Below, one piece after another: positions 48 through 38,134 of a stretch of 64,000 nucleotides of DNA; within the stretch, counting starts at the first letter, position 1; every line of letters starts with the position of its first letter. The notes below the pieces were generated by a model. It was given only the letters and a program-made list of their open reading frames with translations. It was not told where the DNA came from and made no database searches. The DNA is from Escherichia phage phiWec172. The DNA lies in sequence record LC739530.1, one strand, 5' to 3'. The position numbers were made by a program, and so were the translations under genes.

Positions 48-281
48 CTAGTCTTTTTCAATGATAATCTCATATTGTCCATCAACACTGTCGAAATAGA
101 TTCCTTCGTCATCTTCTGTCTTAAAGTAACATTGTATATCATCACTTGCGGGATAGTCTTGCCTTGCTATCTGGCAAACTTGAACAGCATTCTCTTTACT
201 CCCTGTAAACTCCTCAAGCCCTTTAAAATCGCATGAATGGCCATTACAAATTGAGAGGATGAGATAAACGGTTGTTAGCAT
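48..281 (-). CDS. hypothetical protein
   Basis: 77-aa ORF from track; no recognisable motif. Confidence 0.3.
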   Translation of the reverse strand: MLTTVYLILSICNGHSCDFKGLEEFTGSKENAVQVCQIARQDYPASDDIQCYFKTEDDEGIYFDSVDGQYEIIIEKD

Positions 282-346
282 GATTTAAGCCCTCTAAAAG
301 CCCCTGTAAGGGGCTGATTAGTGTTTATAAGGTGATTGTATAGGTT

Positions 347-889
347 TTAAAAAAAGCTCTTTAAGTCTCTCTCTGTGATGTTTCCCGTTAGTGTATCCAT
401 GATGTCACAAAAAACCTGAATACTGTCCGACTGTTGAACACTTTTAGCGAGAAGCTCCAGAGACTCATCAAGATAGTTCATATTTGGGTTATCCAGTGAA
501 GGAAGACAAAAAGGCGAATACATCGCATTAAATTCTGTTACGTAAACCTTTTTAATCCAACTTACATCAAAGTACTCTGTAAAACTTGCTACACTCGACA
601 TATTATCACAAGAATAATCATCGTTTAGCTCATCCTCTGGAATATCGAGTTCTAAGATAACAATATTTTGAGTCTTCATCTGAAAAGCTGCGGTGATAGT
701 GGCATTGCCTAGAGCTTGTTGGATACCTTCGGCTGTTATCTCTTCCTCATCGTCGCCATAGATTTTATTTTCTGGATAAACGTAAAAATTGCCGTCCATA
801 TCCGAACAATTCCATGCGCCCGATGGTTTATCACCGTTATTAATCAGGTTGATAAAGTTTTCTTGAGTAGTACCATGAAAGCATTTCAT
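347..889 (-). CDS. hypothetical protein
   Basis: 180-aa ORF, followed upstream (890-974) by a conserved cassette and RBS. Confidence 0.4.
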   Translation of the reverse strand: MKCFHGTTQENFINLINNGDKPSGAWNCSDMDGNFYVYPENKIYGDDEEEITAEGIQQALGNATITAAFQMKTQNIVILELDIPEDELNDDYSCDNMSSVASFTEYFDVSWIKKVYVTEFNAMYSPFCLPSLDNPNMNYLDESLELLAKSVQQSDSIQVFCDIMDTLTGNITERDLKSFF

Positions 890-974
890 TTTTGAATCTC
901 CAGTTTAGGATTTAGTGGTAAAGCTCTTTATCTGGGGCTTAAGATACCAACTTTTAAGCCCCTTGTAAAGTACT
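890..974 (-). promoter_or_regulatory. Repeated intergenic cassette type A (hairpin GGGGCTTAA-11nt-TTAAGCCCC plus conserved leader with GGAGA RBS)
   Basis: Near-identical copies at 1684-1769, 2756-2843, 3240-3311; sits between stop of upstream gene and ATG of 347..889. Confidence 0.5.
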
Positions 975-1178
975 TTATTTGTTATTTTTGACAACTTTTA
1001 AAACTGCACGGTAACCTAAGCAATAAGAATCACCGAAGAGTGACCGGCCCATGAAAGATTCTTCTGTAATATCTTTCGCCGTGACAGTTTTTTCTACGCC
1101 GTGAAAGAGAACTATATCACCAACTTTAATATCTTTGATGTGAGTTGTTTCAATGTGTAAGCCGTTGATAATAGCCAT
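975..1178 (-). CDS. hypothetical protein
   Basis: 67-aa ORF directly preceded by type B cassette. Confidence 0.35.
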   Translation of the reverse strand: MAIINGLHIETTHIKDIKVGDIVLFHGVEKTVTAKDITEESFMGRSLFGDSYCLGYRAVLKVVKNNK

Positions 1179-2843: not shown

Positions 2844-3239
2844 TTAGTTAATTTTGAAAATTGTCACATAGCCGTCACTGCCGATTATTTGAGACACTCC
2901 AGCTTTTTCCACTGAATAGCCCATATTTTCAAGATGATAAACAGCATCATCATAACCATATGCGCCACCCTGATAACGTCTCTTATCGCATCTTATCAGG
3001 TTTTTACCACGTCCTGCAAGTGCATGGAGAATTGTTTTTTCACTTGAAAGAGTACCATCTAACATGGTTGCCGTGTAATGGTTGATTTTATTCCCGTTGA
3101 TATCATACTTAAAATTGAACGAGTGAACAACAATTATTTTGCCGTTAAATTTTTCATCAAGCGCCTTCTCTAATACATTACGAAAATTTTCTTTATTGAT
3201 GAATTTCGGTGCGCGGTATGCCATTTTTAAGTTCTCCAA
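2844..3239 (-). CDS. hypothetical protein
   Basis: 131-aa ORF. Confidence 0.4.
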   Translation of the reverse strand: MENLKMAYRAPKFINKENFRNVLEKALDEKFNGKIIVVHSFNFKYDINGNKINHYTATMLDGTLSSEKTILHALAGRGKNLIRCDKRRYQGGAYGYDDAVYHLENMGYSVEKAGVSQIIGSDGYVTIFKIN

Positions 3240-3311
3240 TTTAGGATTGAGTGGTAAAGCTCTTTATCTGGGGCTTAAGATACTACCTTTTTAAACCCCA
3301 TGTAAAGCACT
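3240..3311 (-). promoter_or_regulatory. Repeated intergenic cassette type A (imperfect hairpin)
   Basis: Same conserved leader GTGGTAAAGCTCTTTATCTGGGGCTTAAG... (plus-strand view). Confidence 0.45.
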
Positions 3312-3473
3312 TTATGAAATAATTTTTATAAAATCTTTCATGGTTATCTTGTCGCCATTTGTTAGGGCTATGCAGTCATTATCCATCACTGACTTGTAAA
3401 GGTAGAAAACTTTCCCAATTTTTGGGTATCCGTCTAAATCTTTGTAGCTTATTACATTGCCTTCTTTAATCAT
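3312..3473 (-). CDS. small hypothetical protein (about 53 aa), below ORF-track length cutoff
   Basis: ATG-initiated frame MIKEGNVISYKDLDGYPKIGK... read on minus strand; stop overlaps end of cassette A. Confidence 0.3.
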   Translation of the reverse strand: MIKEGNVISYKDLDGYPKIGKVFYLYKSVMDNDCIALTNGDKITMKDFIKIIS

Positions 3474-3485
3474 TGTCAAGCCCTT

Positions 3486-3692
3486 TTAAACGTCATAGTA
3501 GTAAACTGCTGTATGTCTTGTAAACTGTCTTGTGTGATTTGTCAAATAACAATCTGACCTGATTGATGTATCAACATATTTATCAAAATCCTTTTCTGAG
3601 ATACGTTGCCATACATCACAAATAAGCATAAAGAAACGGCGCTTTTTAGTCTTGTTATTGTCTACAATCATCAATTGGCGTTGATATAACAT
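3486..3692 (-). CDS. hypothetical protein
   Basis: 68-aa ORF preceded by cassette B. Confidence 0.4.
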   Translation of the reverse strand: MLYQRQLMIVDNNKTKKRRFFMLICDVWQRISEKDFDKYVDTSIRSDCYLTNHTRQFTRHTAVYYYDV

Positions 3693-4165: not shown

Positions 4166-4945
4166 TCAGCTTATGAATTTGAACTTTTTAGAATACAGCA
4201 AGTAGTGAACTTCATCCTGATTTGTTGTGTAGATGTACGCTGCTGGGTAGTTATCAAAGAATACACCTTCATATCTTCCAAACGGGTCAACTGGGAACAT
4301 TTCACTGTTACACATACCCATCTCACTAACCAGAGGGTAACTAACCTCAACCTTGCCATCAACAAGCTGATAGAGGGTAACTTGATTAGTCTTCCCGTCA
4401 CTTAGCACGACACCATCATAGAATTGTGGTGCTGAGGTAGCATACTTAGTGGTAACTACACTTGCCATTGCTTCATCATAGACGTATAGGTACACATCAA
4501 CGTTATACATAACACTATTAATGAGGCTTTTCACAGCTTGTGCATCTAAACCGCCTATACCTGCCCCAATCATGGGTAAACCAATCTTACGAATGTTGTG
4601 CAGCCAGCAAAATTTACGGAGTTTTTCTAGTGACTCCACTAAGTATCGGTATGATGCACACTTCCCAACATCCAACTGTGTATATAGGTTAAAAATGTAA
4701 CCATACTCCGTTCGAGCATGTGACACCTCACCAGCCATCTGGTATCCGATATCATGGGCACTGTAGCCAAACTTTTTATGGAACTTCCGGTCAGCTTCTT
4801 CAGCTTTTGGGAAAATCTTAGCAATTTTTTGAGCGATTCCAGCACCCATGAGGTTACGACAGTTGCAACCATGAGCAATTAACTCAATGTCTGTGTTTTT
4901 GAAGGCAGCTAGTAAGTTACCTTTTACAACTTTTACAATACCCAT
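4166..4945 (-). CDS. Macro-domain (ADP-ribose-binding/processing) protein with C-terminal extension
   Basis: N-terminus VVKGNLLAAF..DIELIAHGCNCRNLMGAGIAQKIAKIFP resembles macro-domain core (compare YmdB [32 protein letters not shown]); about 90 extra C-terminal residues. Confidence 0.5.
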   Translation of the reverse strand: MGIVKVVKGNLLAAFKNTDIELIAHGCNCRNLMGAGIAQKIAKIFPKAEEADRKFHKKFGYSAHDIGYQMAGEVSHARTEYGYIFNLYTQLDVGKCASYRYLVESLEKLRKFCWLHNIRKIGLPMIGAGIGGLDAQAVKSLINSVMYNVDVYLYVYDEAMASVVTTKYATSAPQFYDGVVLSDGKTNQVTLYQLVDGKVEVSYPLVSEMGMCNSEMFPVDPFGRYEGVFFDNYPAAYIYTTNQDEVHYLLYSKKFKFIS

Positions 4946-5182
4946 TTAACATCTCTCCCAAGATTCTTTATCTTCTGAAGGCTTTACACGTTGCCCTTCG
5001 TGGTCTACCCAGATACATCCACAACCTTCACAGATTACTGGCATTGCATAGCCAGCTTTAAAGTCATCTTCAGTGATAAGACCTTTTAAGTCACCTGTAT
5101 CACGTCCGAACATTTCGATAGCACAATCTTTGCAGAAGTCAGCCATGAATAATTGCCTCTTGGATGATGATGCCTTCGCCAC
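4946..5182 (-). CDS. Small Cys-rich putative zinc-binding protein
   Basis: 78 aa with FCKDCA ... CEGCGC cysteine clusters. Confidence 0.4.
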   Translation of the reverse strand: MAKASSSKRQLFMADFCKDCAIEMFGRDTGDLKGLITEDDFKAGYAMPVICEGCGCIWVDHEGQRVKPSEDKESWERC

Positions 5183-5372
5183 AGCGACTTTTGAAATCTT
5201 CTAATGGTTCAGAGATGAAGCCGCGTAAACGGTCACTGAATTTACGTTTTAAACCCTTCTTATAAGTTAGCACATCTTCCCCTGCAAACGGGACGACTTC
5301 ATCTCTCCCTATGAATACTGCTGAACGTACAATCTTGCGGGTCTTTTTATCTCTGGCTAGTATTACTTTCAT
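5139..5372 (-). CDS. hypothetical protein
   Basis: 77-aa ORF; 5-prime end overlaps neighbour, true start may be internal. Confidence 0.3.
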   Translation of the reverse strand: MKVILARDKKTRKIVRSAVFIGRDEVVPFAGEDVLTYKKGLKRKFSDRLRGFISEPLEDFKSRCGEGIIIQEAIIHG

Positions 5373-5676
5373 AGTTTACCTTCTCAGTTAGCTCATACAA
5401 GTCAACATGCTCAATGCTATCAATGTTGATACCAATCTTTTTGAAGCGTTCTATCACTTCGTTGTCAGTCATCCATATCAGACACCAATGATTATGGATG
5501 GATTCTTCAAGAAGGTCAACACAGTCTTTAAAAGTTTTTGTATCACTTCTTGTTCCGACTACTGCGATTGTCCCATACAACCACTTACCATTGCCATAAG
5601 ATACTTGTGCTACGCCAACTTCTTTATCTTTCTCGTCGTAGTAAACGGCTACAAAGTCTCTTCCATTAATCTGCAT
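5347..5676 (-). CDS. hypothetical protein
   Basis: 109-aa ORF. Confidence 0.4.
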   Translation of the reverse strand: MQINGRDFVAVYYDEKDKEVGVAQVSYGNGKWLYGTIAVVGTRSDTKTFKDCVDLLEESIHNHWCLIWMTDNEVIERFKKIGINIDSIEHVDLYELTEKVNYESNTSQR

Positions 5677-17826: not shown

Positions 17827-18222
17827 TCATTCAAACACTACCTGACAAGGAACCTGTTTAGTAATAAATTCTTCACAGTGTTCTTTAATGAAGTTTTGTA
17901 ATGGTACACAATCTTGTGCGCAAGTCATTAGCATAATGTACTCTGGGTTCATGATGTTTTCAAGGGTGTAGAAGACAACAGCGTTAGATAGTTCATGCCC
18001 ATCTTCTTCAGACCAAGTTCCAGTGACTACAGCTAATTTGTCAAGCAATTCATTAGGCAATGCTACACCATCTTCTACAGAATCACTTAGAACATTGTCA
18101 CCGATATACAATGTGAAGGTCGTATGGAATGTTGAGTATCTTACGTGGTTCTTTTCACAAGAGCCACACTCTGAGGCGTAATCTTTAATCCACTCTAACT
18201 GTTTTTGGTTCAACTTAATCAT
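17827..18222 (-). CDS. hypothetical protein
   Basis: 131-aa ORF. Confidence 0.4.
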   Translation of the reverse strand: MIKLNQKQLEWIKDYASECGSCEKNHVRYSTFHTTFTLYIGDNVLSDSVEDGVALPNELLDKLAVVTGTWSEEDGHELSNAVVFYTLENIMNPEYIMLMTCAQDCVPLQNFIKEHCEEFITKQVPCQVVFE

Positions 18223-18419
18223 AATTTCACCTTAGTTGGTAATGCACTGAATGCTATAGCTAATCCTAAAAATGGTTTGAAGCATGACCATAAATCCATC
18301 TGACCATGATATGAGAAACTCCATTGTGGGTCTGAAAAACCCCATACCATAACGCTAACACCAAAGAAGAAGATTAGAATGTGGAGTATGTATATCAACG
18401 CTTTTGATATCTTAAACAT
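18219..18419 (-). CDS. hypothetical small membrane protein
   Basis: 66 aa, hydrophobic (ILHILIFFFGVSVMVWGF). Confidence 0.3.
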   Translation of the reverse strand: MFKISKALIYILHILIFFFGVSVMVWGFSDPQWSFSYHGQMDLWSCFKPFLGLAIAFSALPTKVKL

Positions 18420-18572
18420 TTTAACTTATCTCTCAATTCACAATAAGAGAGTCCTAAAAAGAACCCCAGTAAGACAGAACCTATGAACAACCCAATAATA
18501 CTATCTGTCATATCTAACATCCAATAAAAAGGTGATGTAAGCCTATCAAGACCCACATCACCTTGTCAAGTT

Positions 18573-19520
18573 TTACATAGAGACTCTATCACGAATCTCA
18601 GCGATTTTTGCATCGTTCATTCGGGATTCACCTTTAATCTTAGTCCATCCAAGATACCCACACACCCTGTTAATCACAGAGATATCATGTGAATGGCAAA
18701 CCTCACATTCTTCAACATCAGCCTTTGGTCTGTTACCACAATGTTCACAGATTGCTAAGTCAAAGTTAAGCCCCTGATAAAAACCTTTCAACATCCCTCT
18801 GGTAATACAACTTTTAAGTGCTGTTAAGTTTTCTGGGTTAGCTACCCTGACATACTGGATTCTCCCACCTCTACAGATATGGAAGAATGGCTCTTCTAAG
18901 TCCTGCTTCTCAAATGGTGATATGTCTGCTGCAACATTCATATGGAAACTGTTTGTAAAGTATTCCTTATCAGAAACACCTTTGATAACGCCAAACATAT
19001 CTCTGAACTGTTTTAGCTGAGTTCCGCAAAGTGATTCTGCTGGAGTACCATAGACGGCATATAAGAAGCCGTCTTCATTTTTAAACTCTTCAGTTTTCAT
19101 GTTAATGTATGCCAGAACATCGTATGTAAAACTACAGCTTCCAACTTCATGAAGCCGTTTACCTTCAGCAAGAACAGATAGCTCATCAAGCGCAGTAACC
19201 CCAAAAGAAGCTGTGAAGGACTTCACAATATCCCAACCAACCCTGTCAGTAGGATTCTTAGTTCCTTTATACAGACCACCTTGTGTAAATGCAAGAGGGT
19301 TAGAACTTGCTGGCATATTAGCAATCATTTCGTAGCGTTTCTTGTGGAAGCTGCGAATTATTTCTAGGTACTTATCAAGCTCTTTCCAGAAATCTAAACC
19401 ATTCTCTTTAGAATACTGGTAAATCATCGGTAAGTTCAAAGATACAGCACCAATGTTTGCACGACCTACATAAAACTCTTCACCATATTCGTTATAGTAT
19501 GGTGATAAAAATGCTCTACA
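18573..19520 (-). CDS. nrdD: Anaerobic ribonucleoside-triphosphate reductase NrdD, exon 2 (glycyl-radical and zinc-ribbon region)
   Basis: Glycyl-radical motif RVCGYLG, Cys cluster CEHCG..CEVC; open frame extends upstream of track start to CRAFLSPYY... Confidence 0.65.
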   Translation of the reverse strand, partial: CRAFLSPYYNEYGEEFYVGRANIGAVSLNLPMIYQYSKENGLDFWKELDKYLEIIRSFHKKRYEMIANMPASSNPLAFTQGGLYKGTKNPTDRVGWDIVKSFTASFGVTALDELSVLAEGKRLHEVGSCSFTYDVLAYINMKTEEFKNEDGFLYAVYGTPAESLCGTQLKQFRDMFGVIKGVSDKEYFTNSFHMNVAADISPFEKQDLEEPFFHICRGGRIQYVRVANPENLTALKSCITRGMLKGFYQGLNFDLAICEHCGNRPKADVEECEVCHSHDISVINRVCGYLGWTKIKGESRMNDAKIAEIRDRVSM

Positions 19521-20262
19521 CTTGTTGTTCAGGTAAGTTCGCTAAGCTTACCCCGCTTTATTCAAGCTGCTTACTGTCGCCAGTAAGTCCAGACTATATC
19601 TTCTACTTATTTCTAAGTAGCGTACCATTTCGAGTCGCTTGACCCTACACCGCTACATTCATCACGGTTAGTCGTTCGGCATTTAGATGTATTCAAACTC
19701 ATACTCAAAGTTATTATGCTCTTTCACACCCTTCAATATTGAAGAGATGGTCTTGCGATTGTGTCCAAGTATATTGGATAACTCTCGTATTGACTTAGCA
19801 ACAATAACTTCCTTTGTCACTTTGTGTGTGGCTTTCACGGCATATGAACGCTTTTGGAACTTGTAGCATCCGTTCTCATAACCTTCTTTAGCATTCTCAG
19901 AATGAGTACCCCATTCTAAGTTAGATGCGTGGTTATTTAGTTTGTTATCGTCCTTATGTTTTACAATTGGAAGATTATTTGGGTTAGGTACATACTTCTC
20001 AGCAACTAACCTGTGGACATACATGTCACGATTCTTCTTACCGTAAAACCTCACTTTCATATACCCAGTGTTGGATTTCCACTGCGTAAGCTCTACACCA
20101 TTTTCCCTAAAGACTTTTCCATCTTCAGTGACGTGATAGTTTGGCATGTAAGACTCCTATGTTGTATAGTTTCTTACATCGTACATCATTTAGCACAGGA
20201 TTGTCTACATATGTAGAGTTTCCCTGTTTAGGCACGTTTTAGATGAGCTATAGAGCCTGTTA
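19521..20262 (-). mobile_element. Group I intron in nrdD carrying an HNH endonuclease ORF
   Basis: Exon 1 ends in U, in-frame TAA right after; P-like AACAGGGAAAC, Q-like AAUCCUGUGC, R-like UCAAGCGACUCG, S-like AGAUAUAGUCUGG; terminal G before exon 2. Confidence 0.6.
19683..20147 (-). CDS. HNH homing endonuclease (intron-encoded)
   Basis: HKDDNKLNNHASNLEWGTHSEN HNH motif; lies inside the nrdD intron. Confidence 0.65.
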   Translation of the reverse strand: MPNYHVTEDGKVFRENGVELTQWKSNTGYMKVRFYGKKNRDMYVHRLVAEKYVPNPNNLPIVKHKDDNKLNNHASNLEWGTHSENAKEGYENGCYKFQKRSYAVKATHKVTKEVIVAKSIRELSNILGHNRKTISSILKGVKEHNNFEYEFEYI

Positions 20263-21459
20263 ACCCATCGGCGAAATAACCTTGCCAGAACGCTCAAAAG
20301 CCTCTGCTACAGCCCCATGACCAGACACACTTAAGAAATCTGGATACATTGCTTTAGAGCAACACTCAATAGCTTTACTGTACAGGTGGCATTGACAGAT
20401 ATTCTCATTATGTCTCTTCTGGTCATAAATATAAACCAGTTTAGGGAATACAACAGGTTTCTTGCTCTTACCTTGTCCATTCATACGAACATCTAGGAGA
20501 GTACTTGCAATCATATATTGCAGTCGGTTATCTTCATTGGACATATCTGAATCAAGTAACCCGAATGTCAAAGTTGTAAATGCAAAATCCCCACGACTAC
20601 AAGGTACAGTGTTTAGTTTCATTTCAAGTGACTGGAAACCTTGAGTCAGTTCAATCTGTAGCTGCTCCATGACATAATTGTGGTAATGCTCTTTAGGAAT
20701 ACCATAAGATGCTGCTTTCTCAGCATGATAGCGTAGAGACTTCTTAGCATACGGTACAAGTACCTTATCAATCTCTGCTAAAGTAAAACCACCAAATTGC
20801 TGTGCAGTTGCTGAAAGAACTATGTCACCAATAACCTGTAAGGCCGACAGCACAGACTTTGGTTCACAGTATTCAATGCCAGACATTTCAAAGCCACCTT
20901 TCAGTACTTTACCGATGTCAAACAGACAACAGTTGATACCACCAAAAATTAGGTCTCTTAAGTCATGGATGTAGATAAACCCTTTTTCAATGGCTTCAAG
21001 TTCCTCTGGTGTTAAGTGGTACTGCTTAAAGATTTCTTTAGTCAGATAACCACGAATAATTGAACCTTTTGTAGAAATTAAACTGCTGTCAAAGTTAGCA
21101 TTCTCTCTGTCGCCTAAGAAGAGTGTATCTTTGGTCTTCTGGTAGAGTTCATCCCAATTTTGAGCAACTTCTTTACGGTAATTTCTATATGTTGAGTAAG
21201 ACTCATAAATCTCGTGATTGACTTCTGCCAAAGCACCCTCAACAATACTGTGAATATCATTTACAGAAATCAGCAAATTATTCTGCTTAGTGGACTTTAC
21301 CAGAATCCTCATAAATGCTGACTCAAGAGCTTGGGTAACATCTGGTGGGAGTTCTTTATATCCAACCCTGTTAGCTGACTTAGTTACTGCTGCTAAAACT
21401 TTTTTGATATCAGGTTCTTCAAGTGAGCCATTCTTTTTAATAATCTGTACTTTGTTCAT
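20263..21459 (-). CDS. nrdD: Anaerobic ribonucleoside-triphosphate reductase NrdD, exon 1 (ATP-cone and N-terminal core)
   Basis: ATP-cone-like N-terminus VQIIKKNGSLEEPDIKKV; ends ...GKVISPMG at 5-prime splice site. Confidence 0.65.
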
Positions 21460-34654: not shown

Positions 34655-36797
34655 ATGGAAAACGTAGATTTTAAGAACTTACATTTGGTTGGTGATACAG
34701 AAACTGATGGTTTACTCCTTGAGTTCACTAAAGTGCACGTAATGGCTTTCGCAGACTATAAATCTGACGATGAAGAGCCACCTGTATGGGTCTTTACAGA
34801 TGAGCCTATCCTCGGTCACAAGTATACCAAGTACATTAAGGGTGGTTTACGTGAAGGTGTTGAATTTGCGTTAAAGGCAAAACGTCTTTGCATCCATAAC
34901 GGTCTCGGTTATGACTGGTGGGTCTTCAATCACATTGCACCTGATTTATGGAACTTTGATAATCCAAAATGTAAGCCGTGGAGTAATTTCTTTCAGGATT
35001 CTCTTATCCAGTCTCGTGTTCAGTGGATGGATAGACCAACTCCAAAGGGTTATAAAGGTGCTCATGGTTTGGCTGCATGGGGTGCTCGTGTTGGTGTTCG
35101 TAAGCCAGAGATTGAACATTGGGGTGTGTGGAATGCAGAAATCTTCACTCGTGTTGTAGAAGATATCCGTATTAACGCCAAAACTAAACGGGCACTTGAT
35201 AACGAGTATCTCAAGCTTAAGAAGTGTGGTATAGACACTTATGAAACTTACATGCGAGCTAAAGAAACATCTTTCTGGATGAGTCAACAAGCTATCAATG
35301 GTTGGAAAGCTGATAAAGAGCTTATGGAGTTCCATGTAAAGGAACTTGACAAGTTGACTAATGAGCTTGCTTCAGAGGTTGAACCACATCTACCTCCAAC
35401 TATTAAGACCAAAGGTAAAGTGACTGGAGAAGAGTTTGCAAAAGCTTGGAATGAGTATGTTGAAACATTTGGTCATGCAGATGGACTGAAAAGAATTACC
35501 AAGTACCCTAAAACAAAGTATCGTCAGCAGGTGCGTAACGGTGAGATGCAGACATACGAAATCAAGCCATTTGGTAAGCCAACTACAAAGATTTTTAACA
35601 TTGAAAAAAGAAATTGCTATACACCAACCAACTCTGTAACTGGTGAAGAGTACAAGGAAGGTTTTGTAGCAATGAAGGATGCTCGTGCAATTTGCAATGA
35701 GTTGAATGCAAAGATTGGTAAGAAGTGCAAAGACTGGAAGCCAGTAAAAACAGTCAAAACTGTGAAGTACTATAACAGCCACGTTGTTAACCACTTTGAA
35801 CTTGAGTCAAGTCGCTACACAGGTTTGATTGATGCACCATATACACCAATTGAGTTCGAAGTTTCTCGCATGACTCAGGTAGCAGTTGTTAAAGACTACT
35901 TGAAATCAGTTGGTTGGATTCCAGATGACTGGAACTACAAGAAAGACTCAGACGGTCGCCCTGTCAAAGTTTGTCGTTTCAAAGACAATAAAAAGATGAT
36001 TACAAAGCATCCTAAGTGGCAGGAAATGGTTGAGCGGTGTGGTTTGAGCTATGTTGAGCATGAAGGTGTACAGTACATTGAGCATAACTGGTCTGTGAAG
36101 AAATACACAGATTTGCTTGAGCCTTGCTTAATCCGTACTTCACCAAAACTTACTGAGTCATCTTATGATACGATTGAAGGTGAGCTTGGACAGAAGATTG
36201 CTAAGTACTATACTTTGATGCACCGACGCAGAACTATTGAGAACTCAAAGGATGATGAAAAAGGTTGGTTGAACCAGATTCGTCCTGATGGTCGCCTTAG
36301 TGCTGGTGCAATGGTGTTTGGCACTTCAACTGGACGTATGACACAATATGGTATTGTAAACGTACCATCTGGTGCTGCTGTCTATGGAGCGCCTATGAGG
36401 GAGGTGTGGATTTGTGAGGAAGGGACTAATATCGTTTCAGTTGACCAGAACTCTGCACAGCTTGTTTTACTGTGTAACTTTATGGGTGATAAAGACTTCA
36501 CCAAAGCGGTAACTGAAGGTAAAGAGTTTGTAGAGTTCACTAAACAGGATGATGGACGATACTACTGCAAGCATCTTGATAAGTACCTAAATCCAGAGGC
36601 TGATAAATATTGTCGTTACGATGCTGATAATGATTTGTATGAAGTCTACACAGGTACTGATGCGCATACACTTAACAGTATTTACTTTGGTCTGAACAAG
36701 GAAGAAGATATTGTTCGTTGTAGGGAGACACAGGATGAGGAACTTCTTCATGAGATTACAAAAGGTCGTAAGAAGAGCAAAAATGGCATTTATGCGT
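34655..36797 (+). CDS. DNA polymerase (family A), exon 1: 3-prime-5-prime exonuclease and N-terminal polymerase region up to motif B
   Basis: Exo motif GDTETDG; ends ...KKSKNGIYA within motif B; track ORF runs to stop at 36838 inside the intron. Confidence 0.7.
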
Positions 36798-37065
36798 CAG
36801 TGGCGCATGTAAAACGTTGTGAATTGCTGGAAGCCTAAGTCTGTAAAGATATGGTAATCAGCAGCGAAGCCTCTTAAGAGGAACGTTCAGAGACTATCGA
36901 AAAGCATACTTAACGTATGAACTGAGTAGAGTAGGGTGGTAAGCTAATGACCATCCCCAAGTGCAACGGTAGTATTACTACTACGTGATATAGTCCGACA
37001 CTCCGTAGAAATGCGGAGAAGTTCATAAGAGAACTGGTACACCTTGCGAGTGTATTGACCAGATG
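36798..37065 (+). ncRNA. ORF-less group I intron (about 268 nt) interrupting DNA polymerase motif B
   Basis: P1: exon AUGCGU pairs with intron GCGCAU (U.G at splice site); P AAUUGCUGGAAG, Q AAUCAGCAGC, R GUUCAGAGACUA, S GAUAUAGUCC; terminal G; splice restores ...GIYALLFGAGDEK... Confidence 0.75.
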
Positions 37066-37622
37066 TATTGTTCGGGGCTGGAGACGAGAAGTTTGCAAAA
37101 ACTATCAAGGCATCATCTACGGAAGAAGGTGCATTGACTAAACAAACTTACTATATGCGTCTGCCAAAGATTAAGAAGTTACTTGATAGCTTAGAAGCCG
37201 ATTTTAAGGCGTCTAAAAAGGCTCTGGAAGAGGTTTTTGGGAAGAATTCTTCAATTGCTAAAGGTGGTTATATCAGGGTCGCTGGAGCATGGATATGGTG
37301 CAAATCTCCACATAAACTACTGAACTACCTCCTGATGAGTTCGGAAGCACAGATTCAGAATGAGGCCATCAACCTTGCAGCAAGAAAAGCCTGTGAAGAT
37401 GGCCTGACAAAACTGAATGCTCGAAAACCAGCTATCGGAGCAAGGTTGCTTCTGGCATATCACGATGAAAATAGTTGGGAATGTCCAGAGGGTATGACAC
37501 AGGATATGAAAGCAATTGCTGACTGGATGTATGGACAAGCTTCAAAAAACTTAGGTTTGAGGAAAGAAACACTTGTAACTGGTACAGCAAAGGTTGGTAA
37601 GTCGTGGTATGAGGTACATTGA
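37066..37622 (+). CDS. DNA polymerase (family A), exon 2: motif B C-terminal half and motif C
   Basis: FGAGDEK(F) matches T7 YGAGDEK; motif C LLLAYHDENSWE. Confidence 0.7.
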
Positions 37623-38134
37623 TGAGAGATTGTGGATTCACACATGAACAGTTAAAATCTTGGTTAGATTATGACCCCGAAACAGGGGTCTTAACATGGA
37701 TTGGTAGACCTCCACACAGTAGTAGGGTGGTTATTGGAAGCCAAGCCGGAGCAATTAAGCGCACAAGGTCTGGTGTGTATATGCACACACAGATTTTAGG
37801 ATACAGGACAGGCAATCACCGAATTGCTTGGTTCTGGATGACAGGCAAGTGGCCTGATAAGCAAATTGACCACAAAGATGGAGATGGTTTGAATAACGCT
37901 TGGGACAATCTAAGAGAGGCCACAAAAGAACAGAACATGTCTAATAGGAGACAACCTAGAACATCAAAAAACTTAAAAGGTACAAGTAGAAGTAAGTCTG
38001 GTAAGTGGAAAGCCCAGATTAACCATAATGGCAAGACTATACATATAGGGACATACACAACAGAAGAAGAAGCCCATAAAGCTTACTGTGAAGCTGCTAT
38101 TAAACTCCACGGAGAGTTTGCAAAACTAAGTTGA
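37619..38134 (+). CDS. HNH homing endonuclease with AP2 domain (free-standing, abutting polymerase exon 2)
   Basis: IDHKDGDGLNNAWDNLREATKEQN (HNH); GKWKAQINHNGKTIHIGTYTTEEEAHKAY (AP2); start overlaps polymerase stop (TGATG). Confidence 0.7.
   Translation: MMRDCGFTHEQLKSWLDYDPETGVLTWIGRPPHSSRVVIGSQAGAIKRTRSGVYMHTQILGYRTGNHRIAWFWMTGKWPDKQIDHKDGDGLNNAWDNLREATKEQNMSNRRQPRTSKNLKGTSRSKSGKWKAQINHNGKTIHIGTYTTEEEAHKAYCEAAIKLHGEFAKLS

What the first reader, a model, noticed from the sequence alone, without database searches (positions are those of the whole stretch)
19521..20262. nrdD interrupted by a group I intron carrying an HNH endonuclease
The NrdD reading frame (ATP-cone and core at 20263..21459; glycyl-radical/zinc-ribbon part at 18573..19520) is split by about 742 nt containing an HNH ORF (19683..20147). 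Exon 1 ends in U with an immediate in-frame TAA; P-like and Q-like elements precede the ORF; R-like and S-like elements follow it; the insert ends in G. Splicing would join ...KVISPMG to CRAFLSPYY.... This parallels the T4 nrdD (sunY) intron, here with an HNH-type endonuclease.
Basis: partly seen in the sequence, partly recalled or inferred. Interest (0 to 1): 0.7.

Follow-up and report, generated by a model that had tools for sequence, protein, structure and literature searches.

The report
Self-splicing intron splitting phage nrdD
The anaerobic ribonucleotide reductase gene of this Felix O1-like coliphage is interrupted, right before the codon of its catalytic cysteine, by an ordinary mobile group I intron carrying an HNH homing endonuclease; databases annotate it only as a split gene or as hypothetical proteins.

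Summary
On the minus strand, nrdD exon 1 (20263..21459) and exon 2 (18573..19520) are separated by a 742-nt insert (19521..20262) carrying a 154-aa HNH ORF (19683..20147).

The insert is a group I intron of the T4-phage type (IA2-like: no P2, extra P7.1/P7.2, ORF looped out of P6a):
- All 14 helices, including P1 and P10 with both exons, are complementary.
- Across 10 relatives, 94% of pair cells are paired (32-41% in slid controls) and 41 pairs show compensatory changes.
- Natural alleles with the ORF deleted, about 98% identical, pass Rfam's curated threshold.
- Intron-less relatives read ...ATGGGT|TGTAGA... with nothing between.
- The spliced protein aligns without a gap to T4 NrdD; the junction is Gly289|Cys290, the thiyl-radical cysteine.

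The ORF is a full-length homolog of the nicking endonuclease I-HmuI. Mobility is supported by three allele states among near-identical phages, introns more conserved than their exons, and a 54-nt exon 2 haplotype linked to the intron.

The T4 comparison holds only for intron class. T4's nrdD intron sits about 110 codons upstream, has its ORF 3' of the core, and encodes a GIY-YIG enzyme.

Verdict: real and well supported, but a new member of a known kind. Splicing was not shown experimentally.

The parts
20263..21459 (-). nrdD exon 1 (399 codons: ATP-cone and the N-terminal part of the NrdD core). It ends ...AUGGGU, and the final U is the 5' splice-site nucleotide.
   Evidence: ORF list. Pfam ATP-cone and NRDD profile positions 1-250. 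Contiguous with exon 2 in intron-less alleles.
19521..20262 (-). Group I intron, 742 nt, IA2-like (no P2, with P7.1/P7.2/P9.1/P9.2). It starts UAA, which is an in-frame stop, and ends in G.
   Evidence: Rfam RF00028 partial hits of 33.1 and 16.1 bits. ORF-deleted alleles about 98% identical score 53.6 and 54.4 bits against a cut-off of 50. Helix model. Covariation.
20243..20256 (-). Internal guide sequence. GCUCUAUA (20249..20256) pairs with the first 8 nt of exon 2 (P10). GCUCAU (20243..20248) pairs with the last 6 nt of exon 1 (P1, with a U.G wobble at the splice site).
   Evidence: P10 co-varies in Vibrio phage 184E37.1 (guide UUGGCA with exon UGCCGA).
20182..20236 (-). 5' half of the ribozyme core: P3 5' strand, P4, P5, P6 5' strand and P6a 5' strand.
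20146..20179 (-). Local hairpin AUGUAAGA...UCUUACAU. It encloses the Shine-Dalgarno AGGAG (20154..20158) and pairs the A and U of the ORF's AUG. It is a possible translational brake on the endonuclease in unspliced early transcripts (inferred).
   Evidence: MFE fold of -16.7 kcal/mol with a modest z of -1.9. The same hairpin appears in the whole-intron fold.
19683..20147 (-). HNH homing-endonuclease ORF (154 aa plus stop) looped out of P6a. Its last two codons, UAC AUC (19686..19691), form the 3' strand of P6a.
   Evidence: Pfam HNH_3. phrog_59 at E=1.9e-42. Full-length match to I-HmuI, PDB 1U3E, at E=3.2e-9. Orthologs 40-49% identical in same-site introns of other phages.
19521..19691 (-). 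3' half of the ribozyme: P6a/P6 3' strands, P7 (5' strand 19669..19674; 3' strand within J8/7-P7 at 19590..19602), P7.1, P7.2, P3 3' strand (19621..19626), P8 with a GAAA loop, P9 with a GCGA loop, P9.1, P9.2, and the terminal G at 19521.
18573..19520 (-). nrdD exon 2 (315 codons plus stop). It starts with the codon of the thiyl-radical Cys (T4 Cys290 equivalent) and contains the zinc ribbon and the glycyl-radical motif.
   Evidence: Pfam NRDD profile positions 264-560 and Gly_radical. Alignment to 1H78 and 9D3X. No start codon is available upstream of the Cys codon.
19467..19520 (-). First 54 nt of exon 2. This haplotype is shared by all intron-containing alleles examined and differs at 8-13 positions from each of the intron-less alleles. 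It is a candidate co-conversion tract and/or the endonuclease recognition region.
   Evidence: 4 intron-containing against 6 intron-less alleles..

Best explanation
This is a mobile, self-splicing group I intron of the T4-phage type (IA2-like). It is inserted in the anaerobic ribonucleotide reductase gene nrdD of a Felix O1-like phage, between the Gly and the catalytic Cys codon of the active-site finger loop.

Proposed mechanism:
- nrdD is transcribed through the insert.
- The intron RNA folds into P1-P10. Its guide sequence GCUCUAUA-GCUCAU holds the end of exon 1 (AUGGGU, with a U.G wobble) and the start of exon 2 (UGUAGAGC).
- A free guanosine attacks after U20263. Exon 1 then attacks after the terminal G19521. 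The result is an mRNA for a 714-aa NrdD.
- The intron carries, looped out of P6a, a gene for an I-HmuI-like HNH endonuclease.
- In mixed infections this enzyme would nick or cut intron-less nrdD alleles near the insertion site. Repair from the intron-containing genome would copy in the intron together with the flanking exon 2 sequence (homing).

Shown here: the anatomy, the fold and its covariation, the exact junction, the population signatures of mobility, and the homology of the enzyme.

Inferred: that splicing and cleavage actually occur, that the enzyme is a nickase, and that the hairpin over its start codon limits its translation.
For: (1) Junction. The intron-less relative FSL SP-107 has 0 nt between ...CCGATGGGT and TGTAGAGC..., and five further intron-less alleles agree. 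The spliced protein aligns without a gap across the junction to T4 NrdD (1H78) and to 9D3X. Counting along that alignment puts the junction at T4 Gly289|Cys290.

(2) Ribozyme.
- Rfam RF00028 hits both halves: 33.1 bits at E=1.8e-6, and 16.1 bits.
- The proven T4 td intron, which also has its ORF in the core, scores only 40.3 bits.
- Natural 316-nt ORF-deleted alleles in phages EC6 and momo, 98.4% and 97.8% identical outside the deletion, score 53.6 and 54.4 bits against a cut-off of 50.
- All 14 modelled helices are fully complementary.
- On 10 relatives, 94.4% of cells are paired against 32-41% when partners are slid. 41 pairs have double changes against 6-12. No shuffle out of 500 reaches the observed values.
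- RNAalifold independently recovers P1, P3-P6a, P7.1, P8, P9 and P9.2, with 35 of its 67 pairs compensatory.
- The single-sequence MFE fold recovers 11 helices with z=-2.74.
- P10 co-varies with the exon 2 sequence.

(3) No separate translation. There is no ATG, GTG or TTG between the last in-frame stop and the Cys codon. The first start in exon 2 lies 27 codons past the Cys.

(4) Endonuclease. HNH_3, phrog_59, and a full-length match to I-HmuI with His64, Asn76 and Asn85 aligned to His75, Asn87 and Asn96.

(5) Mobility.
- Among 246 Felix-like nrdD records there are three states. A 40-row sample gave 11 with the ORF-containing intron, 6 with the ORF-less intron and 22 with no intron. Identity bands suggest about 61 and about 44 records with the two intron forms.
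- Tribble and momo have introns 98% identical to the window's, but exon 1 is only 81% identical, and most differences lie more than 115 nt from the junction.
- An intron-linked haplotype covers the first 54 nt of exon 2.
- The same intron with an orthologous endonuclease sits at the same Gly|Cys site in rV5-like, phi92-like and Vibrio phages. It also occurs in 6 viral contigs whose NrdD is only 28-38% identical.
Against: - No experiment shows splicing or cleavage for this phage.
- The window's own copy does not reach Rfam's gathering score (one search found nothing at this site; one search gave 33.1 bits). This is explained by the 465-nt ORF inside P6a, but it is still a formal miss.
- The residue aligned to the I-HmuI metal ligand Asp74 is Lys63, so catalytic competence is not assured.
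- The ORF stops five codons earlier than its orthologs.
- Roughly 40% of intron-bearing relatives have lost the ORF, so the endonuclease is dispensable and may be decaying.
- The promoter scan gives no signal for separate expression of the ORF: 9 sites found against 8.8 expected.
Confidence: 0.92

Rival explanations
1. nrdD is a genuinely split gene. A free-standing homing endonuclease gene has cut it in two, and the two halves are translated separately and assemble into an active enzyme, as in the Aeromonas phage Aeh1 nrdA/mobE case.
For: GenBank records of relatives annotate two separate reductase CDSs with an endonuclease between them. One paper describes it as a split gene interrupted by a homing endonuclease (PMC4837284). 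The Aeh1 precedent exists (PMC3653736).
Against: - A complete covarying ribozyme surrounds the ORF.
- ORF-less alleles still keep 316 nt of ribozyme at the same place and pass Rfam's threshold.
- The second half has no start codon that would include the essential catalytic Cys. The annotated second CDSs start 27 or more codons downstream of it.
- The guide sequence pairs with both exon ends.
Confidence: 0.03
2. The insert is a decayed intron that no longer splices, so nrdD is a pseudogene in this phage.
For: Splicing is untested. Phages also carry aerobic nrdAB, so nrdD might be dispensable under laboratory conditions. The window copy scores below Rfam's threshold.
Against: - Every helix is intact.
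- P7 and J8/7 are invariant across all 10 relatives.
- The splice-site U.G pair, the terminal G and the 8-bp P10 are preserved.
- Both exons remain open and conserved in about 100 intron-bearing genomes.
- The sub-threshold score is matched by the functional T4 td intron.
Confidence: 0.04
3. The intron splices, but its endonuclease is inactive or on the way to loss. The element is now inherited vertically or moved only by general recombination. This concerns only the endonuclease's current activity and is compatible with the splicing part of the best explanation, so its confidence is not meant to add up with the others.
For: - Lys63 stands where I-HmuI has the metal ligand Asp74.
- The ORF is five codons shorter than its orthologs, which read on into P7.
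- A single 426-nt in-frame deletion of the ORF is found in about 44 relatives.
- This matches the later stages of the homing cycle (invasion, ORF decay, loss), which is established knowledge and was not tested here.
Against: - The ORF is intact and at least 95% identical in about 60 genomes.
- Orthologs in other phage families also lack Asp at that position yet are conserved over their full length.
- Intron identity exceeds exon identity in divergent backgrounds, with tracts typical of recent homing.
Confidence: 0.25

Closest known systems
T4 td intron with I-TevI (group I, subgroup IA2; subgroup assignment from established literature)
   Same: - Same overall architecture: the ORF is looped out of P6a, and P7.1/P7.2 and P9.1/P9.2 are present.
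- Same 5' splice context, GGGU|UAA, giving an in-frame stop.
- 71% nucleotide identity over 228 nt of the ORF-trimmed intron.
- It aligns helix for helix in the covariation test.
- It also falls below Rfam's threshold because of the ORF.
   Different: - Different host gene (thymidylate synthase).
- td has a P2 hairpin that is absent here.
- Its endonuclease is GIY-YIG I-TevI, not HNH.
- The P7.1 sequence differs.
T4 nrdD (sunY) intron with I-TevII
   Same: Same gene and same intron class. The catalytic core is 74% identical over 191 nt.
   Different: - It is inserted after codon 179 (AYE|YEVNTL). The intron here sits at the T4 Gly289|Cys290 equivalent.
- Its core is contiguous (105 bits in Rfam) with the ORF downstream of it.
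- Its endonuclease is GIY-YIG.
Same-site nrdD introns in Escherichia phages JEP1 (Vequintavirus) and PD114 (Justusliebigvirus) and in Vibrio phages 184E37.1, F95 and 1.084.O
   Same: - Identical insertion point...AUGGGU | UG(U/C) (A/C)G....
- Same helices, with compensatory changes.
- Same P7.1 motif, GUGAUGAAUGUAGC.
- Orthologous HNH ORF in P6a, 40-49% identical.
- PD114 has an ORF-less version that scores 72.5 bits.
   Different: - 71-73% nucleotide identity only.
- Their ORFs read five codons further, into J6/7 and P7.
- In JEP1, PD114 and 1.084.O the P10 guide is shorter and, by my reading of the sequences, separated from the P1 guide by a few nucleotides.
- The host NrdD proteins are highly diverged.
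- None of these is annotated as an intron, except for a note on the JEP1 endonuclease.
I-HmuI, the intron-encoded HNH nicking endonuclease of Bacillus phage SPO1 (PDB 1U3E)
   Same: Full-length similarity, residues 3-152 to 12-169, at E=3.2e-9. The His and the two Asn of the HNH motif are aligned, and there is a C-terminal helix-turn-helix-like segment. It is also encoded inside a phage group I intron.
   Different: - Low identity.
- Asp74 of I-HmuI is Lys here.
- Different host gene (DNA polymerase) and host phage.
- Nicking activity and target are unknown for the window's protein.

Membership tests
Group I intron (Rfam RF00028) | Covariance-model score at or above the curated gathering score (50 bits) | tested here: inconclusive
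   The window copy scores 33.1 bits (3' half) and 16.1 bits (P3-P6), with nothing at gathering. The model cannot bridge the 465-nt ORF in P6a. The proven T4 td intron behaves the same way, at 40.3 bits. Natural ORF-deleted alleles about 98% identical pass with 53.6 and 54.4 bits.
Group I intron (Rfam RF00028) | Conserved core of paired regions P3-P9, with P3 and P7 forming a pseudoknot, supported by covariation | tested here: met
   All helices are complementary. 94.4% of cells are paired against 32-41% in slid controls. 41 pairs show compensatory changes. 0 of 500 shuffles reach the observed values. There is independent RNAalifold and MFE support.
Group I intron (Rfam RF00028) | 5' splice site after a U that forms a U.G wobble in P1 with an internal guide sequence; the 3' end is a G; P10 pairs with exon 2 | tested here: met
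   P1 pairs AUGGGU with GCUCAU. P10 pairs GCUCUAUA with UGUAGAGC. The terminal G is at 19521. P10 co-varies in a Vibrio phage.
Group I intron (Rfam RF00028) | Precise removal restores an uninterrupted, conserved reading frame | tested here: met
   Six intron-less alleles and a gapless alignment to solved NrdD structures.
Group I intron (Rfam RF00028) | Guanosine-dependent self-splicing | not testable with these tools
   This needs in vitro transcription and splicing, or RT-PCR.
Subgroup IA2-type phage introns (T4 td/nrdB/nrdD type) | Extra helices P7.1 and P7.2 between P7 and the 3' strand of P3 (a criterion recalled from the literature on group I classification) | tested here: met
   P7.1 pairs ACCG with CGGT, and P7.2 pairs GGGUC with GACUC. 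Both show compensatory changes in relatives.
T4 nrdD (sunY)/I-TevII intron | Same insertion site in nrdD | tested here: not met
   The T4 site is after codon 179. The site here is the Gly289|Cys290 equivalent. T4 nrdD is uninterrupted at the Gly|Cys site (hit H145).
T4 nrdD (sunY)/I-TevII intron | ORF located 3' of the catalytic core and encoding a GIY-YIG enzyme | tested here: not met
   Here the ORF lies between the two strands of P6a and is HNH. In T4 the core is at L007 5640..5871 and I-TevII at 4824..5600, both on the minus strand.
HNH homing endonuclease, I-HmuI-like | HNH domain above the curated cut-off, plus full-length similarity to I-HmuI | tested here: met
   PF13392 at 41.2 bits against 24.8. 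1U3E at E=3.2e-9 over residues 3-152.
HNH homing endonuclease, I-HmuI-like | Catalytic and metal-binding residues (I-HmuI Asp74, His75, Asn96; roles recalled from the structure paper) | tested here: inconclusive
   His64, Asn76 and Asn85 align to His75, Asn87 and Asn96. Asp74 aligns to Lys63. The orthologs also lack Asp at that position.
HNH homing endonuclease, I-HmuI-like | Site-specific nicking or cleavage of the intron-less allele | not testable with these tools
   Only indirect population evidence is available: patchy distribution and co-conversion-like tracts.
Class III ribonucleotide reductase NrdD (spliced product) | ATP-cone, NrdD core with the finger-loop Cys, C-terminal zinc ribbon and glycyl-radical motif in one polypeptide | tested here: met
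   Pfam domains on the two exons are consecutive. The 714-aa spliced protein matches 9D3X (E=1.5e-77) and T4 1H78 (E=1.1e-74) end to end.
Gene split by a free-standing endonuclease (Aeh1 nrdA/mobE type) | No ribozyme, and each half has its own translation start covering all essential residues | tested here: not met
   A ribozyme is present. There is no start codon upstream of the catalytic Cys.
Intein | The insert is in frame with both flanks and has no stop codons | tested here: not met
   An in-frame TAA follows exon 1 immediately, and there are further in-frame stops before exon 2.

The most novel reading that the evidence does not exclude
The element is an actively homing intron-endonuclease pair. 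Its I-HmuI-like enzyme recognises the exon 2 side of a target formed by the codons of the NrdD active-site finger loop.

On this reading, the intron-linked 54-nt exon 2 haplotype is both a co-conversion tract and a self-immunity patch. That haplotype includes two amino-acid changes 8 and 11 residues after the catalytic Cys.

The same Gly|Cys site would also have allowed transfer between unrelated phage families: Felix O1-like, rV5-like, phi92-like and Vibrio phages.

Felix O1-like phages show all three stages of the homing cycle at more than 90% genome identity. They would therefore be a convenient natural system for measuring nickase-driven homing and marker exclusion.
Probability: 0.45. Interest if true: 0.4.

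Novelty: new member of a known kind. Interest (0 to 1): 0.3.

Why it matters
The main value is in annotation and as a possible model system.

- **Annotation.** In the source record (phiWec174) this stretch is labelled only 'hypothetical protein'. In dozens of related therapeutic-candidate phages nrdD is annotated as two separate genes plus an endonuclease. The Felix O1 genome paper stated that introns were absent from that phage (true for Felix O1 itself). In the library I searched, I found no paper that describes this intron. The gene is most probably intact and functional after splicing.
- **Biology.** The case adds one more example of introns targeting the most conserved codons of ribonucleotide reductases, here the thiyl-radical Cys. 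It shows that one intron and endonuclease lineage occupies this exact site in several phage families.
- **Model system.** The coexistence of intron-less, ORF-containing and ORF-deleted alleles in near-identical phages offers an easy experimental system for homing.

None of this changes current understanding of group I introns.

Tried and rejected
- **Rfam at gathering threshold on the whole window** found nothing at this site. It found only another intron, at 36735..37018. The miss is explained by the ORF in P6a. I could not submit an artificial ORF-deleted sequence to the Rfam tool, so I used natural ORF-deleted alleles as a proxy.
- **Same site as the T4 nrdD intron:** rejected.
- **Intein:** rejected because of in-frame stops.
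- **Separately translated halves:** rejected, because there is no start codon before the catalytic Cys.
- **Promoter scan for independent expression of the ORF:** uninformative, with 9 sites against 8.8 expected. One 'terminator' on the plus strand is simply the P9.2 hairpin read backwards.
- **NCBIfam scan of the ORF:** no meaningful hit.
- **Extra ~575 nt in nrdD-region matches of Mushroom-type phages:** I suspected a second intron. It is a free-standing endonuclease gene between nrdD and nrdG.
- **Literature searches for a prior description of this intron:** I found only 'split gene interrupted by a homing endonuclease' (PMC4837284) and an unexplained 'two introns' from an ncRNA scan of phage SPJ41 (PMC9951933).
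- **P1 assignment:** my first guess used the first GCUC (intron nt 7-10). I replaced it with GCUCAU (nt 15-20) after comparison with relatives. The first copy belongs to the P10 guide.
- **Corrected tallies:** my running commentary gave 17 same-site hits (11 Felix-like) and about 23 hits in nrdD. A recount gives 16 (10 Felix-like plus 6 diverged) and 21.
Full report
**Source and observation**

The window is 100% identical to Escherichia phage phiWec174 (LC739531.1), a Felix O1-like myovirus. In that record the whole region is annotated only as 'hypothetical protein'. Reading the minus strand confirms every coordinate in the finding.
- A 399-codon ORF (20263..21459) ends ...CCG ATG GGT and runs straight into TAA.
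- 742 nt follow (19521..20262), containing a 154-codon ORF (19683..20147).
- The frame then resumes with TGT AGA GCA... and runs to 18573.

Pfam places ATP-cone and NRDD profile positions 1-250 on the first piece. It places NRDD positions 264-560 plus Gly_radical on the second piece, and HNH_3 on the middle ORF.

**The junction is exact**

A spliced-exon query finds 246 Felix-like phage records. In many of them the query matches in a single piece.
- In FSL SP-107 the sequence reads ...CCGATGGGT|TGTAGAGC... with zero intervening bases.
- Five more intron-less alleles agree.
- The 714-aa spliced protein aligns without a gap across the junction to two solved NrdD structures, 9D3X (E=1.5e-77) and T4 1H78 (E=1.1e-74).
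- Counting along the T4 alignment puts the junction between Gly289 and Cys290. Cys290 is the thiyl-radical cysteine; its role is taken from the literature on the T4 structure. The count also lands correctly on Asn311.

**The insert is a group I ribozyme**

*Rfam.* At gathering threshold Rfam reports nothing here. A permissive search hits RF00028 twice on the correct strand: 33.1 bits (E=1.8e-6) over the 3' half and 16.1 bits over P3-P6. This shortfall is what an ORF in the core produces. The experimentally established T4 td intron scores 40.3 bits in the same kind of search.

*A natural control.* Phages EC6 and momo carry a 316-nt version at the same site. It is the same intron (98.4% and 97.8% identical) with a clean 426-nt in-frame deletion of the ORF. 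These score 53.6 and 54.4 bits against a cut-off of 50.

*Helix model.* I derived a model by homology with td and with relatives:
- P1: exon AUGGGU with guide GCUCAU.
- P10: guide GCUCUAUA with exon 2 UGUAGAGC.
- P3, P4, P5, P6 and P6a.
- P7, which forms a pseudoknot with P3.
- P7.1 and P7.2.
- P8 with a GAAA loop and P9 with a GCGA loop.
- P9.1 and P9.2.
- There is no P2.

Every pair is a standard pair in the window sequence (coordinates).

*Covariation.* I used an alignment of ten ORF-trimmed relatives: this phage, three other Felix-like phages, phi92-like PD114, rV5-like JEP1, two Vibrio phages, T4 td and an Aeromonas terminase intron.

| Measure | Observed | Control |
|---|---|---|
| Cells forming a standard pair | 94.4% | 32-41% when partners are slid by 1-3 columns |
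| Pairs with changes on both sides | 41 | 6-12 when slid |
| Shuffles reaching any of the five observed measures | 0 of 500 | - |

- P3, P6a, P8 and P9.2 each have 5-6 compensatory pairs, and P7 is invariant.
- RNAalifold, run without my model, predicts P1, P3, P4, P5, P6, P6a, P7.1, P8, P9 and P9.2. 35 of its 67 pairs are compensatory.
- The single-sequence MFE fold of the ORF-trimmed intron recovers 11 of the helices (z=-2.74).
- P10 co-varies with the exon. In Vibrio phage 184E37.1 exon 2 begins UGCCGA and the guide is UUGGCA.

**The halves cannot work as separate proteins**

In the frame of exon 2 the last stop lies 7 codons before the Cys codon. No ATG, GTG or TTG follows it. The first canonical start is a TTG 27 codons past the Cys, with no obvious ribosome-binding sequence in the 20 nt before it. 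A separately translated C-terminal piece would lack the catalytic cysteine.

**The endonuclease**

- The ORF matches phrog_59 'HNH endonuclease' (E=1.9e-42).
- It matches I-HmuI of Bacillus phage SPO1 over its whole length (1U3E, E=3.2e-9).
- His64, Asn76 and Asn85 align with I-HmuI His75, Asn87 and Asn96. The residue aligned to Asp74 is Lys63.
- The ORF sits in the loop of P6a. Its last two codons, UAC AUC, are the 3' strand of P6a.
- A hairpin pairs part of the Shine-Dalgarno region and the AU of the AUG. This resembles the translational control described for I-TevI. That comparison is from my own knowledge and is an inference, and the z-score is modest (-1.9).
- I-HmuI is a nickase. That this enzyme also nicks is an inference.

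**Mobility**

Three allele states coexist among Felix-like phages that are otherwise more than 90% identical.
- In the 40-row spread, 11 records carry the 742-nt intron, 6 carry the 316-nt ORF-less intron and 22 carry none.
- The identity bands suggest about 61 records with the long form and about 44 with the short form.
- In Tribble and momo the intron is 98% identical to the window's, while the 287 nt of exon 1 are 81% identical. 49 of the 57 differences lie more than 115 nt from the junction.
- All four intron-containing alleles share one haplotype over the first 54 nt of exon 2, apart from 1-2 scattered single-base differences each. Each of the six intron-less alleles differs from the window at 8-13 positions there: 11-13 in the five Felixounavirus alleles and 8 in the more distant ESh21. 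These include two amino-acid positions.
- The last 75 nt of exon 1 show no such split.

This asymmetry fits co-conversion during homing. It also fits an I-HmuI-like enzyme that binds mainly the 3' exon side, which I recall from the I-HmuI literature and did not test.

**A wider family at the same site**

Introns at exactly the Gly|Cys position occur in:
- PD114 (ORF-less, 72.5 bits);
- JEP1, whose HNH ORF is 49% identical;
- Vibrio phages 184E37.1, F95 and 1.084.O, whose HNH ORFs are 40-44% identical.

A signature scan of IMG/VR gave 58 loci.
- 21 of these lie in nrdD.
- In 16 of them the NrdD match resumes at residue 400, the Cys. Ten are Felix-like and six have NrdD only 28-38% identical.
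- The other 37 have no NrdD nearby, so the intron subfamily also lives in other genes. One example is a terminase gene in Aeromonas phages.
- My running commentary gave 17, 11 and about 23 for these tallies. The figures here are the recount.

**Comparison with T4**

- The T4 nrdD intron interrupts ...AFQAYE|YEVNTL... after codon 179.
- It has a contiguous core (105 bits), with I-TevII, a GIY-YIG enzyme, downstream of it.
- T4 nrdD is continuous across the Gly|Cys site.
- Its core is nevertheless 74% identical to the window's over 191 nt. That is similar to td (71%) and to the same-site relatives (71-73%).
It is wrong for insertion site, ORF position and endonuclease family.

**Prior knowledge**

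- The Felix O1 paper reports no introns (PMC3185647). That is consistent with Felix O1 being an intron-less allele.
- Moreno Switt et al. note endonucleases inserted into conserved genes (PMC3728262).
- The UAB_Phi87 paper describes 'one split gene (nrdD)' interrupted by a homing endonuclease (PMC4837284).
- The SPJ41 paper lists 'two introns' from an ncRNA scan without comment (PMC9951933).
- A 2013 survey of split phage RNR genes does not list Felix-like phages.
- I found no explicit description of this intron in the searchable library. Subscription journals are not covered.

**Verdict**

This is a real, well-supported group I intron with an HNH homing endonuclease. It is un-annotated or mis-annotated in databases, and it is a new member of a thoroughly known kind. 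Interest is modest (0.3). The remaining uncertainty is experimental: splicing and endonuclease activity have not been shown.

Noticed in passing
window 36798..37065 (+): A second, ORF-less group I intron (268 nt) splits the DNA polymerase gene. Rfam RF00028 gives 63.8 bits, E=7.4e-14, over 36735..37018. The predicted splice at 36797|37066 joins ...KNGIYA to LLFGAGDEK... and yields one open frame of about 900 aa. Intron-less relatives, including Felix O1 itself, match the spliced query in one piece. Intron-bearing relatives span 400+268 nt.
   Followed up: yes
window 37619..38134 (+): A 171-aa ORF immediately after the polymerase gene has an HNH-like motif (IDHKDGDGLNN) and a C-terminal segment that looks AP2-like by eye. 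It is probably a free-standing homing endonuclease next to the polymerase intron. It is only weakly similar to the nrdD-intron HNH (E=0.05).
   Followed up: partly
L019 (Salmonella phage Mushroom KP143762.1) 3093..3593: Some Felix-like phages (Mushroom, Sl26, the GEC_vB series) carry an additional free-standing homing endonuclease with a NUMOD3 domain between nrdD and nrdG. In the window, three small ORFs occupy that position (17827..18556). It is not a second intron.
   Followed up: partly
L012 (JEP1) 110..990; L005 (Vibrio phage F95) 207..1365: rV5-like JEP1 and Vibrio phage F95 carry a second, upstream insertion in nrdD with another HNH ORF. In those phages nrdD is therefore in three pieces. 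In JEP1 that upstream site is neither the window's Gly|Cys site nor the T4 site; I did not map the F95 site. I did not test these inserts for a ribozyme.
   Followed up: no
L002 401..716 (EC6); L003 488..803 (momo): The ORF-less alleles keep a 12-codon remnant, MPNNFEYEFEYI (MPNN... in EC6; momo's first codon is ATA, so its remnant has no start codon). It arose from one 426-nt in-frame deletion with identical end points in both phages. This suggests a single deletion event that then spread.
   Followed up: partly
public records MG065664/MG065668/MG065684/MG065690 ('Campylobacter phage A1xx') and GU169904 ('Staphylococcus phage SA1'): These records match Felix O1-like coliphage nrdD and polymerase sequence at 88-96% identity. 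They are probably mislabelled or contaminated assemblies.
   Followed up: no
window 20090..20097 (-): The 8-mer UGUAGAGC that forms P10 at the start of exon 2 also occurs once inside the HNH ORF. This is probably coincidence, but in principle it is a cryptic partner for the guide sequence.
   Followed up: no
window 18529..18564 (-): A strong terminator-like hairpin (16 pairs followed by a T-run) lies directly after the nrdD stop codon. It suggests that nrdD ends a transcription unit separate from the small ORFs and nrdG downstream.
   Followed up: no
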